Shown here: one piece after another, positions 6,903-9,640 of the stretch
Position numbering within the stretch: position 1 is the stretch's first letter
Layout of the letters: each line of letters starts with the position of its first letter
Virus genome (UHGV): UHGV-2022489
Length of the DNA stretch: 10,043 nt
Reading direction: 5' to 3' (one strand)
DNA from: a virus
The notes under the pieces: model-generated
Databases searched by the model: none
The model's input: only the letters and a program-made list of their open reading frames with translations
Told to the model about the DNA's origin: nothing
Position numbers and translations under genes: made by a program

Positions 6903-7349
6903 ATGGGCAACAATGAGCATGAAGTTATGGCGGACAAACAGAGAGCAGAACGTATCAAAAAGGTAATTCTGGAACACTCGACTTATGAAGAACTGGCCGA
7001 GAAGACTGGCATTAGCGTGAGTACGCTGGTCAGGATAGCGTCCGGCAAAACTGAACCTAAATTCAGTGACATCATTCAGATAGCTAAAATTACGGGTGCA
7101 GACTTAAACACCTTAGCTTATGGCTATACTCTTGATGTTAAAGAAGAAGCTACCGAGCGGAAGCTAATCACTTCTGCGGATGGATATACTGATGAAGAAA
7201 CCACTAACGCACATAATTTCATCGTGTGGAACATCAGGACACTGGAAAAACAAGATATTCTGGCACTCGCAAGGCAGGTTTCTGCATTAAGTTCATACAC
7301 TTACAGTACTAAAATGTTTATGAAAAAAGCGGTGTCTGGAGAAGAGTAA
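6903..7349 (+). CDS. XRE-family helix-turn-helix transcriptional repressor (RstR-like phage repressor), 148 aa
   Basis: Classic Cro/C1-type HTH (STYEELAEKTGISVSTLVRIASGKTEPKFSDIIQIAKITGADLNTLA); divergent from the Rep gene as rstR is in CTXphi; GGAG about 9 nt upstream of the ATG. Confidence 0.8.
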   Translation: MGNNEHEVMADKQRAERIKKVILEHSTYEELAEKTGISVSTLVRIASGKTEPKFSDIIQIAKITGADLNTLAYGYTLDVKEEATERKLITSADGYTDEETTNAHNFIVWNIRTLEKQDILALARQVSALSSYTYSTKMFMKKAVSGEE

Positions 7350-7378
7350 AAGGATTAACAGTCTCAGGAATGAGACAA

Positions 7379-7413
7379 ACGTGCAGTATTACCAACACTG
7401 CACGTTCTTTATT
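7379..7413 (+). terminator. Rho-independent terminator downstream of the repressor gene
   Basis: Perfect 9-bp stem (ACGTGCAGT, 9-nt loop, ACTGCACGT) followed by TCTTTATT, 30 nt after the stop codon. Confidence 0.6.
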
Positions 7414-7448
7414 GTGCGAATTTTGAACAGTAAAAAAGGATCAAAAGG

Positions 7449-7871
7449 ATGAGTAGAAATAACGAAACAAGCGGCGTTGAACTGGTTGTCGTCGGCGTAT
7501 TTGCTTTCTGTCTGGCAGTTGTTGCCTGGCTAATGAAAACTTTCGATGTTGAATGGCAAACAGCACTGGAAACTGCGCCTGGCCTGATAGTCTGGCTGCT
7601 TGTTGTTGGGGCGGGGATCTTTTTCGGGATCAAAATGGAAACAGGCCTTGTTCGCTGGGGTGCTCCACTGGCGATCGCCCTTCTGATTCCGGTATTCAAA
7701 CCAATTCTTAAGGAAGCTGCCGGAGTACGTGAAATGGGTGGGTTGGTTTTCGATGATATGGTTTCGTGGTACGGAACTGGCTGGGGAATGTCGTTAATGT
7801 TTTTCGGTATTCTTATCGTCGGATACGGTCTGCTTTATTGGTGGCACAGAAGAAACTCTTATTATTGGTAA
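7449..7871 (+). CDS. Small integral membrane protein with four predicted transmembrane helices, 140 aa; function unknown
   Basis: Four hydrophobic segments (LVVVGVFAFCLAVVAWLM; GLIVWLLVVGAGIFFGI; WGAPLAIALLIPVF; WGMSLMFFGILIVGYGLLYWW); AAGGA-type RBS upstream of the ATG. No motif I can assign. Confidence 0.7.
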   Translation: MSRNNETSGVELVVVGVFAFCLAVVAWLMKTFDVEWQTALETAPGLIVWLLVVGAGIFFGIKMETGLVRWGAPLAIALLIPVFKPILKEAAGVREMGGLVFDDMVSWYGTGWGMSLMFFGILIVGYGLLYWWHRRNSYYW

Positions 7872-7938
7872 GCAATTTTGCTCCATATATCAGCGGTGAA
7901 GTTCAGAGGTGGTTATTTTTTAGTCTTGAGGAAAGATA

Positions 7939-8733
7939 ATGAAGCCAGAAAAAGCTATCGAGATATTAAAAAGACAACGGGAGCAAATCCCAGCAATACA
8001 AAATGAACGAAGGAGTACAGGAAATAACCCAAGTTTTAACTTGTGGCAAAGAAACACTAAGACCGCCATATCAAAAATATTTGGTGAAGAGTCAGATCAC
8101 AAAAAAGAATTTGGCTCAATTCGATACTCTTTAATGGCATTTGTTGGTGATACACCAGATTATGTTTTCGATAACGCATTTTGTAGTGGTTTAGATGAAG
8201 CACATTCTCTTCTTACGTCTATGATCGCTGAGATTGAAGAATATGGAATTGACGGAAATTTCATAGAGACAAAAAATGATGCCGTAGCTCTTGTTGAACT
8301 AATTTGCCATCAATTTCATAAGGTTGCAAGACAGCTACAGCAACGACACGATAATAGACAAACCATTGAAATAAATGACGAATATGACGTTCAGGATTTA
8401 TTTCATGCTCTTTTGAAGATTCATTTCGAGGATGTCAGACCAGAAGAATATACGCCAAGCTATGCAGGATCTTCAACACGAGTTGACTTCTTGTTAAAGA
8501 ATGAAAAAATCATTATCGAGTTAAAGAAAACGAGAAAAAATCTCAAGCAAAAAGAAGTTGGTGAGCAATTAATTGTTGATATAGCTCATTATCAAACGCA
8601 TCCTGATTGCGAAACTTTAGTGTGTTTTGTATATGACCCTGAAGGTAGAATTGCCAATCCAATTGGTGTGGAGAATGACCTTGAGCGTTGTACAAATTCA
8701 ATTTCGGTAAAAGTAATAATCTCACCAAAATAA
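7939..8733 (+). CDS. Hypothetical two-domain protein, 264 aa, with a candidate PD-(D/E)xK nuclease motif in the C-terminal half
   Basis: GAGGAAAG RBS upstream of the ATG. C-terminal region contains an acidic helix (EYDVQDLF, FEDV), then RVD183FLL and, 10 residues later, IIE194LK196, matching the D...(D/E)xK arrangement of restriction-endonuclease-fold nucleases. The N-terminal half is helical-looking and contains R131-x5-H137. Family not identified. Confidence 0.7.
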   Translation: MKPEKAIEILKRQREQIPAIQNERRSTGNNPSFNLWQRNTKTAISKIFGEESDHKKEFGSIRYSLMAFVGDTPDYVFDNAFCSGLDEAHSLLTSMIAEIEEYGIDGNFIETKNDAVALVELICHQFHKVARQLQQRHDNRQTIEINDEYDVQDLFHALLKIHFEDVRPEEYTPSYAGSSTRVDFLLKNEKIIIELKKTRKNLKQKEVGEQLIVDIAHYQTHPDCETLVCFVYDPEGRIANPIGVENDLERCTNSISVKVIISPK

Positions 8734-8743
8734 AAGGACATAT

Positions 8744-9010
8744 ATGGCTACTGTAGATGATGTTGCACAATGGATGAAATCAGAGCTGGAAAACACAAAC
8801 TGGCTATATCAAGAAACTGTTGTATATAAAATAAAAGAGTTATTTGGCGATACTTTCGTATATTTGAATGCTAATGGAAATTTATCCATTGATAAAAAAG
8901 TATTAGCGAAATTTAGAAAGCTAACTAATGACACGGTTATATGGGAGAGAGGTGAAAAAGCATGGCGAAAAAGACAAGGTTATGATGCCCCTGGTCGACA
9001 GCAGGACTAA
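8744..9010 (+). CDS. Small hypothetical protein, 88 aa, translationally coupled to the upstream 264-aa gene; basic C-terminus
   Basis: Starts 10 nt after the upstream stop with AAGGA in the gap; followed within about 35 nt by a strong terminator. No recognisable motif. Confidence 0.65.
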   Translation: MATVDDVAQWMKSELENTNWLYQETVVYKIKELFGDTFVYLNANGNLSIDKKVLAKFRKLTNDTVIWERGEKAWRKRQGYDAPGRQQD

Positions 9011-9044
9011 ATAATTGGTTCGCACAATGACGTTATGCTAAAGA

Positions 9045-9080
9045 GGCCGCTGCGGGATTCGATCTTCGCAGCGGCCTTTT
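9045..9080 (+). terminator. Rho-independent terminator ending the two-gene cargo operon
   Basis: Perfect 10-bp GC-rich stem (GGCCGCTGCG, 12-nt loop, CGCAGCGGCC) followed by TTTT. Confidence 0.75.
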
Positions 9081-9110
9081 CAACATAACGAGTCGTACAT
9101 TATGCGCACT
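9078..9110. other. Candidate dif-like XerC/XerD recombination site (possible prophage attachment junction)
   Basis: TTATGCGCACt (9100-9110) matches the reverse complement of the E. coli dif XerC arm (TTATGCGCACC) at 10/11. tTTcAACATAA (9078-9088) matches the XerD arm (ATTTAACATAA) at 9/11. The intervening 11 bp is longer than the 6-bp dif core. The dif sequence is recalled from memory. Confidence 0.4.
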
Positions 9111-9259
9111 CATGTTGTAGTAGCCAACTTGAGATGTCCGTCTCTGACCAAATAGACATGTCCGCGCTACAGTCTCACCACAGCGATCACTGCTTTTAAA
9201 GATAGTTTCCCAATCAAAGGATTCTGATGACGGATCATGCACCGGCATTTTTACTTTGG

Positions 9260-9537
9260 ATGAAGTTAACCGACTCTAAATCATTCATGACGTTGTCGAC
9301 CGGCGTCTGACCACTCAGATGGCCGCGCAGCGCCTGGGTATTCCCGATCGTCAGTGCCGATGCCTTCTCTCGCGTTACAATCAATCAGGCCCACTGAGTA
9401 TGCCTAACCGCCGTCGTGGATAACCCAGCAATAACCAGCTGCCTGATGGTCTTGCCCGGTACGCACTCAATATTATCCGCGAATGCTATACCGACTTTGG
9501 ACCTAGGCTGGCGTATGAGAATGTTGTCTACTTGTGA
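9260..9537 (+). pseudogene. Decayed N-terminal fragment of an IS transposase (HTH region only; frameshift near 9280 and in-frame TAA at 9421-9423; C-terminal catalytic domain absent)
   Basis: Translation reads ...VVDRRLTTQMAAQRLGIPDRQCRCLLSRYNQSGPLSMPNRRRG*PSNNQLPDGLARYALNIIRECYTDFGPRLAYENVVYL*, resembling the conserved N-terminal HTH region of IS481/ISNCY-like transposases (recalled pattern ...RLL.RY...G...L.H.NRG.PSN..L...YADFGP.LA.EKL). An ATG at 9260-9262 (MKLTDSKSF) is in a different frame from the HTH segment. Confidence 0.55.
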
Positions 9538-9640
9538 AAAAAACTCATAACACCATTCAATGGCGCATGCTGGTTCCCTTCATACCAGTGCAATACCCTG
9601 TCACATACATAATTGCTGGCAATAAAAGAAGGAACACCGA

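What the first reader, a model, noticed from the sequence alone, without database searches (positions are those of the whole stretch)
7939..9010. Coupled two-gene cargo operon (PD-(D/E)xK-like 264-aa protein plus 88-aa partner) between the phage repressor and the dif-like site: candidate undescribed defence or toxin-antitoxin-like module
The two genes are translationally coupled (10-nt gap with RBS), have their own terminator, and sit where temperate phages carry accessory (moron) genes, between the repressor and the attachment site. The larger protein has a restriction-endonuclease-fold-like motif (D183 ... E194-x-K196, preceded by an acidic helix) with an unassigned helical N-terminal domain. 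The 88-aa partner has no recognisable motif and a basic tail. By eye the operon looks more AT-rich than the flanking host gene. I cannot match either protein to a named defence family (Shedu, Gabija, Kiwa, AbiE and others considered), so the pairing may be uncharacterised. A nuclease with a small cognate partner fits either an abortive-infection effector with a regulator or a toxin with an immunity protein.
Basis: partly seen in the sequence, partly recalled or inferred. Interest (0 to 1): 0.8.

Follow-up and report, generated by a model that had tools for sequence, protein, structure and literature searches.

The report
Nuclease cargo cassette in filamentous prophage
The two genes are real cargo in a swap-in slot next to the attachment site of a CUS-1/YpfPhi-type filamentous prophage: a restriction-enzyme-fold DNase of a large known family that other bacterial immune systems use as a killing domain, followed by a small winged-helix protein. 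They are not a conserved two-gene system, so this is a reasonable but fairly ordinary candidate phage-defence gene.

Summary
ORFs 7939-8733 (264 aa) and 8744-9010 (88 aa) are separated by 10 nt with an AAGGA ribosome-binding site. They have 35.5% GC against 42.6% for the phage backbone, and a strong hairpin follows them.

The claim that neither protein matches a family does not hold.
- **264-aa protein:** Pfam PF18742 REase_DpnII-MboI (E 7e-59). E148, D183 and K196 are invariant and E194 is at least 90% conserved. Its nearest characterised relative is bAgaN, the nuclease associated with long-B Argonautes. Its N-terminal four-helix bundle matches PADLOC candidate PDC-S35.
- **88-aa protein:** Pfam DUF6953, predicted to be a winged helix.

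The pair is not a conserved system. The nuclease family (about 4,400 clusters at 50% identity) is almost always found alone, including an 85%-identical copy in Pectobacterium polaris. DUF6953 is mostly found alone or next to DUF2158. The pair occurs only in dif-integrating elements of Enterobacterales.

In sibling phages the same slot holds at least nine other cassettes, among them an AbiJ-like protein and a TIR protein, or nothing.

My best reading is a stand-alone sensor-plus-DNase defence or exclusion gene in an inovirus accessory hotspot, with DUF6953 as an optional nucleic-acid-binding accessory. This is a new member of a known kind, of moderate interest.

The parts
7939..8733 (+). 264-aa nuclease gene. 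N-terminal four-helix-bundle domain (about residues 1-112, nt 7939-8274) plus C-terminal PF18742 REase_DpnII-MboI PD-(D/E)xK domain (residues 118-264). Catalytic codons: E148 at 8380-8382, D183 at 8485-8487, E194 at 8518-8520, K196 at 8524-8526.
8734..8743 (+). 10-nt intergenic gap AAGGACATAT carrying the ribosome-binding site for the downstream gene.
   Evidence: Sequence. Tight spacing (10-17 nt) is kept in the Salmonella, Pectobacterium and Morganella copies.
8744..9010 (+). 88-aa DUF6953 protein, predicted to be a stand-alone winged-helix domain with a basic wing and tail.
9017..9109 (+). Phage attP region and right border of the cargo slot. Dif-like arm A 9017-9043, GC hairpin with U-tract 9043-9080 (also terminator-like), inverted dif-like arm B 9081-9109. 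Homology to the E. coli prophage copies ends at 9109.
   Evidence: Forked ssDNA hairpin -24.4 kcal/mol, z -5.1. RNA hairpin z -6.2. Conserved in E. coli, Salmonella and Pectobacterium copies. Match end.
7449..7871 (+). 140-aa multi-pass membrane protein (phrog_4174). It is the conserved left border of the variable cargo slot and is part of the phage backbone, not of the cassette.
   Evidence: Present at 88-100% identity in 21 related IMG/VR contigs regardless of cargo. A 36%-identical homologue lies next to a nuclease homologue in a different inovirus. Found in 128 E. coli genomes against 24 for the cassette.
6903..7349 (+). HTH_3 (RstR/cI-like) phage repressor upstream of the slot, followed by a terminator-like hairpin at about 7378-7410.
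   Evidence: Pfam HTH_3 1.6e-9 and phrog_3557 9e-74. Fold of 7350-7450, z -5.2.

Best explanation
The segment between the conserved membrane-protein gene and the attP/dif site of this CUS-1/YpfPhi-type filamentous prophage is an exchangeable accessory slot. In this copy it holds a low-GC cassette acquired as one unit.

The 264-aa gene encodes a self-contained 'sensor plus effector' DNase. Its C-terminal PD-(D/E)xK domain (family PF18742) carries an intact E148/D183/E194/K196 metal-binding site and is the catalytic part. A variable N-terminal four-helix bundle most likely keeps the enzyme inactive or mediates oligomerisation or trigger sensing. By analogy with bAgaN, its closest characterised homologue, I infer that the enzyme is harmless when idle. 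When activated by an incoming phage or other mobile DNA, it would degrade DNA, giving the lysogen (and so the prophage) exclusion or abortive-infection immunity.

The 88-aa DUF6953 protein is a winged-helix, probably nucleic-acid-binding, accessory that is co-expressed here. It is not an obligate partner. It may tune expression or targeting, or it may be an independent small cargo gene.

Shown: family membership, conserved catalytic residues, predicted folds, slot variability and lack of obligate pairing. Inferred: DNase activity, the regulatory role of the N-terminal domain, the defence phenotype and any role of DUF6953.

For: Immune-effector relatives:
- PADLOC Aga_Helical-REase 1.3e-34 and profile hit to EcbAgaN, PDB 23wq.
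- EcbAgaN is a dimeric, Mn-dependent, non-specific DNase that does not kill on its own (PMC10620215).
- PF18742 is listed as an alternative effector domain of Detocs (bioRxiv 10.1101/2023.01.24.525353).

Modularity:
- The N-terminus matches positions 1-103 of PADLOC PDC-S35, whose remainder matches a TIR domain.
- Across 4,429 family representatives, many match only the C-terminal domain, and the longer ones carry unannotated N-terminal regions.
- The N-terminal domain averages 43% identity and the C-terminal domain 65%.

Hotspot:
- 22 related phage contigs keep the membrane gene but carry at least nine different fillings or none, including AbiJ_NTD4+DUF7014 and a CAP12/Pycsar-type TIR protein.
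- In E. coli, 128 genomes carry the membrane gene (a phage backbone gene) and 24 carry this cassette.

Context elsewhere:
- 31 further IMG/VR prophage loci carry solo homologues.
- Their neighbours include Kiwa, a DUF1156-MTase/PLD-helicase operon and PDC-S31.
- Accessory hotspots enriched in defence genes next to a regulator are documented for Vibrio filamentous prophages (PMC11630473).
Against: No phenotype is known. PADLOC has no model that calls this protein a system by itself, and 'PDC' entries are only candidates. Only 2 of the roughly 9 alternative cassettes hit recognised defence domains. About 5 of the 17 distinct homologue loci had known defence neighbours within 4 kb, and I computed no background rate. 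None of 50,697 deposited phage genomes encodes a homologue. The tight nuclease-to-DUF6953 spacing is kept with nuclease alleles of 49-96% identity, which hints at a closer functional tie than 'optional accessory'. The activation mechanism is pure inference. Model pTM is 0.56, so the relative orientation of the two domains is uncertain.
Confidence: 0.55

Rival explanations
1. The pair is a true two-component module: a toxic nuclease with DUF6953 as its cognate antitoxin, immunity protein or activating adaptor.
For: A 10-17-nt gap with an RBS is kept in four contexts: the window, Salmonella (nuclease 96% identical to the window's, DUF6953 89%), P. brasiliense (49% and 77%) and Morganella. The two genes have identical low GC. 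Linkage is perfect in E. coli, 36 of 36 places. In Morganella the nuclease has decayed to a pseudogene while DUF6953 is intact, the direction of loss expected for a toxin and antitoxin.
Against: An 85%-identical nuclease in P. polaris, at the same dif-adjacent locus, lacks DUF6953. The nuclease is solo in Roseococcus, Riemerella, a second inovirus and 31 viral loci. The family has about 4,400 clusters at 50% identity whereas the DUF6953 search found 91 clusters at 90% identity. DUF6953 lacks a nuclease neighbour in 21 of 21 distant loci and sits next to DUF2158 in seven contexts. The E. coli linkage comes from one clone at 99% identity or more. bAgaN is not toxic alone.
Confidence: 0.2
2. The nuclease is an orphan sequence-specific type II restriction enzyme of the DpnII/MboI kind (cutting unmethylated GATC). 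The host's own Dam methylase would protect the chromosome and the phage replicative form.
Against: The scan at E<=1 listed no other restriction-enzyme family; only PF18742 matched. Full-length homologues at 52-57% identity occur in Alphaproteobacteria, Bacteroidota and Firmicutes, which generally lack Dam (the taxon statement is from established knowledge). The nearest characterised relative is a non-specific DNase. The N-terminal domain is a helical bundle, not a recognisable DNA-reading domain.
Confidence: 0.1
3. The genes serve the phage life cycle, for example as Xer-recombination accessory factors at the adjacent attP, in replicative-form processing or in lysogeny control. DUF6953 would act as a DNA-binding directionality factor similar to XafT.
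For: DUF6953 is a winged helix lying 6 nt from attP arm A. The cassette is always next to attP in dif-integrating elements.
Against: Sibling phages with the same backbone and attP carry unrelated genes or nothing in the slot (L093 and L094 are empty), so the cassette is dispensable for integration and propagation. In Salmonella, DUF2158 separates DUF6953 from attP. Both families occur widely outside inoviruses.
Confidence: 0.05
4. The cassette is a neutral or decaying hitch-hiker, or a host-fitness or virulence factor unrelated to nucleic-acid conflict.
For: YpfPhi and CUS-1 give a modest in vivo fitness gain of unknown basis (PMC4266046). Decayed copies exist in Morganella and P. polaris.
Against: Both ORFs are intact with all catalytic residues. 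The family is highly conserved, with 62% mean column identity across phyla, which implies purifying selection. Its relatives are immune effectors.
Confidence: 0.1

Closest known systems
bAgaN, the nuclease of long-B prokaryotic Argonaute (BPAN) systems (PADLOC Aga_Helical-REase; PDB 23wq EcbAgaN)
   Same: Homologous C-terminal PD-(D/E)xK domain with the D...E-x-K motif (PADLOC 1.3e-34; PDB profile hit 1.8e-4). Two-domain layout of a helical N-terminal part plus a REase-like C-terminal part. It probably works the same way: a latent non-specific DNase unleashed on invader detection.
   Different: There is no Argonaute gene in the window. The protein is 264 aa against 370-400 aa. The N-terminal 96 residues do not match the bAgaN profile, where the match starts at profile position 216 of 378. 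Whatever triggers the enzyme must therefore differ.
PADLOC candidate PDC-S35 (single-gene phage-defence candidate)
   Same: The N-terminal helical domain (residues 1-107) matches profile positions 1-103 (E 3e-11). Both are single-gene, roughly 264-aa, 'N-terminal domain plus effector' proteins.
   Different: The effector half of PDC-S35 matches a TIR domain. Here it is replaced by a REase-fold nuclease, an effector swap. PDC-S35 itself is only a computational candidate.
Accessory or defence hotspots of temperate phages (P2/P4 hotspots; variable locus of Vibrio filamentous prophages, PMC11630473)
   Same: A fixed position next to the regulator and the att site, flanked by conserved sequence. 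It is filled with many alternative small cassettes, some with defence domains (AbiJ-like, TIR, REase).
   Different: This one is in the enterobacterial CUS-1/YpfPhi lineage. Most alternative cassettes have no recognisable domains. No phenotype has been tested.
Type II restriction endonucleases DpnII/MboI
   Same: Same fold superfamily, and the Pfam family is named after them.
   Different: No cognate methyltransferase, no match to other restriction-enzyme families, a different N-terminal domain and unknown specificity.
Detocs variants whose DtcC effector carries a PF18742 REase domain
   Same: The same effector domain family is used as an immune output module.
   Different: The window has no DtcA/DtcB two-component partners and no receiver domain.

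Membership tests
Pfam PF18742 REase_DpnII-MboI | Score above the curated gathering threshold over the full domain | tested here: met
   198.2 bits against a 27-bit cut-off; residues 118-264 cover profile positions 2-150 of 150
PD-(D/E)xK nuclease superfamily | Conserved E...D...(D/E)-x-K metal-binding residues on an alpha-beta-beta-beta-alpha-beta core | tested here: met
PD-(D/E)xK nuclease superfamily | Demonstrated nuclease activity | not testable with these tools
   Needs purified protein
BPAN (long-B pAgo + bAgaN) system | Nuclease homologous to bAgaN | tested here: met
   PADLOC PDLC02411 1.3e-34; EcbAgaN 23wq E 1.8e-4 with the family profile
BPAN (long-B pAgo + bAgaN) system | Adjacent catalytically inactive long-B Argonaute gene | tested here: not met
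   All large ORFs of the window are inovirus genes, the repressor or host genes. No Argonaute was seen in any related locus examined.
Type II restriction-modification (DpnII/MboI type) | Cognate methyltransferase encoded alongside | tested here: not met
   No MTase in the window. Solo in nearly all homologue loci; a methyltransferase lay within 4 kb in at most 2 of the 17 distinct loci, one of them the DISARM-like DUF1156 MTase in L042.
Type II restriction-modification (DpnII/MboI type) | Sequence-specific cleavage blocked by methylation | not testable with these tools
   Needs a biochemical assay on Dam+ and Dam- DNA
PADLOC PDC-S35 | Full-length match to the profile (N-terminal helical domain plus TIR-like C-terminal domain) | tested here: not met
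   Only residues 1-107 match profile positions 1-103 of 264 (E 3.1e-11). The profile's C-terminal half matches a TIR protein instead.
Type II toxin-antitoxin or nuclease-immunity pair | The toxin gene is consistently accompanied by its cognate partner across genomes | tested here: not met
   The nuclease is solo at 85% identity and in all 31 other viral loci. DUF6953 lacks a nuclease neighbour in 21 of 21 distant loci.
Type II toxin-antitoxin or nuclease-immunity pair | Toxicity of one gene neutralised by the other | not testable with these tools
   Needs expression experiments
Pfam PF22266 DUF6953 | Score above the gathering threshold | tested here: met
   98.9 bits against a 27-bit cut-off; residues 3-75 cover profile positions 1-73 of 74
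Winged-helix DNA-binding proteins | alpha1-beta1-alpha2-alpha3-beta2-beta3 fold with a basic wing | tested here: met
Winged-helix DNA-binding proteins | Binds nucleic acid | not testable with these tools
   Needs EMSA or similar
Prophage accessory (defence) hotspot | Same position between conserved flanks holds many unrelated cassettes in sibling phages | tested here: met
   At least nine fillings plus empty slots between the membrane gene and attP arm A in L076-L097
Prophage accessory (defence) hotspot | Cassettes enriched in anti-phage genes | tested here: inconclusive
   AbiJ_NTD4+DUF7014, a CAP12/Pycsar TIR protein and this REase have defence-type domains. Six other cassettes have no informative hits.
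   No such PADLOC or Pfam hits for either protein at E<=1

The most novel reading that the evidence does not exclude
The 4-helix-bundle-REase protein is an autonomous, Argonaute-independent relative of bAgaN that works as a single-gene anti-phage or anti-plasmid system. In dif-integrating elements DUF6953 is its nucleic-acid-sensing adaptor or regulator. The CUS-1/YpfPhi cargo slot would then be an uncharted enterobacterial defence hotspot whose six domain-less cassettes (91+159, 155+123, 98+262, 101+240, 110 and 374 aa) are new immune systems. This might also explain the unexplained fitness effect of these phages in E. coli K1 and Yersinia pestis.
Probability: 0.2. Interest if true: 0.6.

Novelty: new member of a known kind. 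Interest (0 to 1): 0.38.

Why it matters
CUS-1 and YpfPhi are the filamentous prophages of invasive E. coli K1 and pandemic Yersinia pestis. The 2014 review of YpfPhi states that the two terminal ORFs next to the repressor differ between the phages, have no homologues and have unknown function, and that identifying them 'could bring important insights' (PMC4266046).

This analysis shows that the position is an exchange slot for conflict-type genes, and it gives this allele a concrete, testable assignment. It also flags a very large family (about 4,400 clusters at 50% identity) of stand-alone PF18742 nucleases that has no experimentally assigned role outside multi-gene systems such as long-B Argonaute and Detocs. 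If one member is shown to protect cells by itself, many 'hypothetical proteins' in prophages and defence islands would gain an annotation.

The general principle, that filamentous prophages carry defence hotspots, has already been described for Vibrio and Pseudomonas. The advance is therefore incremental.

Tried and rejected
- **NCBIfam:** no hit for either protein.
- **PHROGs:** only 'unknown function' families: phrog_29450 and phrog_10782.
- **PDB by sequence with single proteins:** only E 0.27 for the nuclease and nothing credible for DUF6953.
- **Deposited phage genomes (INPHARED):** no DNA or protein match.
- **Context look-up of P0006:** not on record.
- **Literature searches** for DUF6953, PDC-S35 and AgaN with Argonaute: nothing. 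'DpnII-MboI' gave one unrelated paper.
- **Direct BLASTP** of the nuclease against the TIR cargo protein of L092: no similarity. The link between the N-terminal domain and TIR therefore rests only on the PDC-S35 profile.
- **Promoter scan:** counts equal to shuffled expectation (8 against 7.2), so no promoter claim is made.
- **Membrane protein plus nuclease as the 'real' pair:** I considered this after finding both in a second inovirus. I rejected it because 20 sibling phages keep the membrane gene without the nuclease, and the Pectobacterium copies and all other viral loci have the nuclease without it.
- **Shedu, Gabija, Kiwa, AbiE:** no model hits.
- **Not attempted:** I could not establish whether the window's cassette equals YPO2271/2272 of YpfPhi or orf1/orf1a of CUS-1.
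Full report
**1. What is in the window**

The window is a filamentous (Inovirus) prophage. It encodes:
- a G2P-type replication protein (Phage_CRI plus G2P_X_C);
- a Zot/pI morphogenesis ATPase;
- a secretin;
- an HTH_3 repressor.

Near-identical DNA (99.6-99.8% over 7400-9109) lies at the dif locus next to hipA in 24 complete E. coli genomes, often in tandem copies. This is the behaviour described for CUS-1 of E. coli K1 and YpfPhi of Yersinia pestis (PMC4266046).

The host flank of this window is not E. coli chromosome. It holds a transposase remnant and an aldo/keto reductase.

**2. The observation**

- **ORFs.** Both ORFs sit at exactly the stated coordinates. They are separated by AAGGACATAT.
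- **Residues.** D183, E194 and K196 are as stated, with E148 in the preceding acidic helix.
- **Composition.** The cassette has 35.5% GC. The neighbouring membrane gene has 47.5%, the phage backbone 42.6% and the host flank 48.5%. The two genes therefore look like a unit acquired together.
- **Terminator.** The 'own terminator' is real as a structure: hairpin 9043-9080 plus a U-tract, -28.3 kcal/mol, z -6.2. It is also the tip of a forked ssDNA hairpin made by two inverted dif-like arms at 9017-9043 and 9081-9109 (z -5.1). That is a CTXphi-style attP. The whole structure is conserved in the E. coli and Salmonella copies and, up to part of arm B, in the Pectobacterium copies.

**3. The 264-aa protein**

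It is not an orphan.
- Residues 118-264 match Pfam PF18742 REase_DpnII-MboI at 198 bits (cut-off 27).
- PADLOC matches Aga_Helical-REase, the nuclease associated with long-B Argonautes, at 1.3e-34 over residues 97-263.
- Residues 1-107 match the first 103 positions of candidate PDC-S35 at 3e-11.
- In 38 homologues, E148, D183 and K196 are invariant and E194 is at least 90% conserved.

The AlphaFold model (pLDDT 84, pTM 0.56) has two parts:

A family profile finds EcbAgaN (PDB 23wq) at E 1.8e-4. EcbAgaN is a dimeric, Mn-dependent, non-specific DNase with a D-EVK motif. It does not kill by itself and is switched on by its Argonaute (PMC10620215). PF18742 is also listed as an alternative effector domain of Detocs.

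The family is large. It has 4,429 representatives at 50% identity with E<=1e-3 and 1,623 with E<=1e-30. Full-length relatives of about 262 aa at 52-60% identity occur in Proteobacteria, Bacteroidota and Firmicutes. Many relatives share only the C-terminal domain, and the longer ones examined carry unannotated N-terminal regions of 140-250 aa. Within the close family the N-terminal domain averages 43% identity and the C-terminal domain 65%. This is the pattern of a constant effector joined to a variable input domain.

**4. The 88-aa protein**

**5. Is the pair a system?**

*Evidence for a link*
- The order nuclease then DUF6953, with a 10-17-nt gap, recurs in three further places:
  - the Salmonella version of the phage (nuclease 96% identical to the window's, DUF6953 89%);
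  - a dif-adjacent mini-element of Pectobacterium brasiliense (nuclease only 49% identical, DUF6953 77%);
  - Morganella, where the nuclease has decayed to a stop-riddled pseudogene and DUF6953 is intact.
- In E. coli both genes occur in the same 24 genomes and 36 places. All copies are at least 99% identical, so this is one clone.

*Evidence against an obligate link*
- P. polaris carries an 85%-identical nuclease at the same dif-adjacent locus with no DUF6953.
- The nuclease is solo in Roseococcus and Riemerella.
- In a second, unrelated inovirus the nuclease is followed instead by a membrane protein.
- All 31 other IMG/VR loci have the nuclease without DUF6953.
- None of 21 distant DUF6953 loci has a nuclease neighbour.
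- Seven DUF6953 contexts instead have a DUF2158 (YodC-like) gene immediately adjacent. One of these is the Salmonella phage itself, where the order is nuclease, DUF6953, DUF2158, attP.

The nuclease therefore does not need DUF6953, and DUF6953 has other company. The pairing is a facultative arrangement limited to Enterobacterales dif elements.

**6. The slot**

The 140-aa membrane protein upstream (phrog_4174) is backbone. It is present at 88-100% identity in 21 related IMG/VR contigs, and more distantly (35%) in a 22nd (L097), and in 128 E. coli genomes. What lies between it and attP arm A varies:

| Slot content | Loci |
|---|---|
| This cassette (nuclease + DUF6953) | 2 contigs: L080, L081 |
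| 309-aa AbiJ_NTD4+DUF7014 protein (PDC-S32-like) | L076, L077, L079 |
| 368-aa CAP12/Pycsar-type TIR protein, matching the C-terminal half of PDC-S35 | L092 |
| Zn-ribbon 91 aa + 159 aa | L083, L084, L086, L095 |
| 155 + 123 aa | L082, L089 |
| 98 + 262 aa | L087, L088 |
| 101 + 240 aa | L096 |
| 110 aa | L085 |
| 374 aa | L090 |
| Nothing | L093, L094 |

This explains the old remark that YpfPhi and CUS-1 differ by 'two unrelated ORFs' at this end. It also shows that the cassette is dispensable for the phage. The arrangement parallels the accessory hotspot next to a regulator in Vibrio filamentous prophages, which is enriched in defence genes (PMC11630473).

Elsewhere, nuclease homologues sit in prophage accessory regions near Kiwa, PDC-S31 (DUF2971) and HSDR_N genes. 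In L042/L043 the homologue lies 4 nt downstream of a PLD-helicase, in an operon with a DUF1156 methyltransferase.

**7. Mechanism proposed**

I propose a latent DNase. Its PF18742 domain would cut DNA using the E148/D183/E194/K196 site. Its four-helix-bundle domain would hold it in check or sense a trigger. Activation during invasion by another phage or mobile element would give exclusion or abortive infection.

- **Shown:** family, fold, conserved site, modular architecture, hotspot location and independence from DUF6953.
- **Inferred:** activity, latency, trigger and phenotype.
- **DUF6953:** most likely a nucleic-acid-binding accessory, acting as a regulator or adaptor, or an independent small cargo gene.

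**8. Rivals**

- **Toxin/immunity pair (0.2).** Disfavoured by the solo nucleases.
- **Dam-dependent orphan DpnII-like restriction enzyme (0.1).** Only PF18742 matches, homologues occur in taxa that generally lack Dam, and the nearest characterised relative is non-specific.
- **Life-cycle or Xer accessory role (0.05).** Excluded in practice by sibling phages that lack the cassette.
- **Neutral hitch-hiker or virulence cargo (0.1).**

**9. Verdict**

Neither gene is family-less, and the pair is not a conserved two-gene system. The nuclease is nonetheless a credible, untested stand-alone defence candidate sitting in a true cargo hotspot of a medically relevant phage lineage. I class it as a new member of a known kind, with interest about 0.4.

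**10. Caveats**

- Neighbour ORFs in fetched loci were called with a simple longest-ORF script.
- The IMG/VR loci are partly redundant.
- No background rate was computed for defence neighbours.
- PADLOC 'PDC' models are candidates, not validated systems.

Noticed in passing
window 9017-9109: Two inverted dif-like arms (9017-9043 and 9081-9109) flank the GC hairpin. As ssDNA the region folds into a forked hairpin (z -5.1), resembling the CTXphi attP(+) substrate for XerCD. Homology to the E. coli prophage copies ends at 9109, which is the host junction.
   Followed up: partly
L010, L013, L015, L023, L024, L036-L038, L072/L073: DUF6953 is repeatedly found immediately next to a DUF2158 (YodC-like, about 60-70 aa) gene, often with overlapping stop and start codons, in Acidobacteria, Rhodocyclaceae, Methylobacterium and others, and in the Salmonella version of this phage. 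This uncharacterised small-gene pair is more recurrent than nuclease plus DUF6953.
   Followed up: partly
L076-L097 (slot equivalent to window 7872-9016): Sibling phages carry at least nine alternative cassettes in the same slot. Six of them (91+159, 155+123, 98+262, 101+240, 110 and 374 aa) have no informative Pfam or PADLOC match and are untested candidates for new functions.
   Followed up: partly
L074/L075 (Pectobacterium brasiliense), L031 (P. polaris): A 1.7-kb mini-element at the chromosomal dif site consists of dif, about 500 nt, nuclease, DUF6953, then attP arm A, the hairpin and the start of arm B, with no other phage genes. P. polaris keeps only a different nuclease allele (85% identical to the window's, 49% to that of P. 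brasiliense). These are either decayed prophages or minimal Xer-mobilised elements.
   Followed up: partly
L042 272-7940, L043: A nuclease homologue (54% identity) sits 4 nt after a PLD-helicase (PADLOC PLD_Helicase, E 0) and downstream of a DUF1156 methyltransferase, followed by a 377-aa unknown protein. Here the nuclease looks like a component of a DISARM-like multi-gene system.
   Followed up: no
window 7449-7871 and L032 5787-6176: The 140-aa membrane protein of this phage has a 36%-identical homologue in an unrelated Rep_trans-type inovirus, where it lies directly downstream of a nuclease homologue. Its function is unknown.
   Followed up: partly
window 9208-9588: Remnant of an IS-type transposase N-terminus (HTH_23/HTH_29 type, 68% identical to an intact copy in L083) with three in-frame stops, lying directly beside the dif junction. 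The first 92 nt of the flank match unannotated DNA on E. coli plasmids at 94.6%.
   Followed up: partly
L006-L008 4300-4983 (Morganella morganii): A heavily decayed nuclease pseudogene with many stops. Family motifs such as FIYDHEGRIVN are still recognisable. It lies directly upstream of an intact DUF6953 gene.
   Followed up: yes
window 7378-7410: A strong terminator-like hairpin (ACGTGCAGT...ACTGCACGT followed by a T-rich run) lies just after the repressor gene. This suggests the membrane gene and the cassette may form a transcription unit separate from the repressor. No convincing promoter was found.
   Followed up: no
L001 (E. coli 1410D004): The prophage is present in tandem at dif, so the cassette occurs twice. 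E. coli genomes carry up to three copies of the cassette and up to 16 places matching the membrane gene.
   Followed up: no
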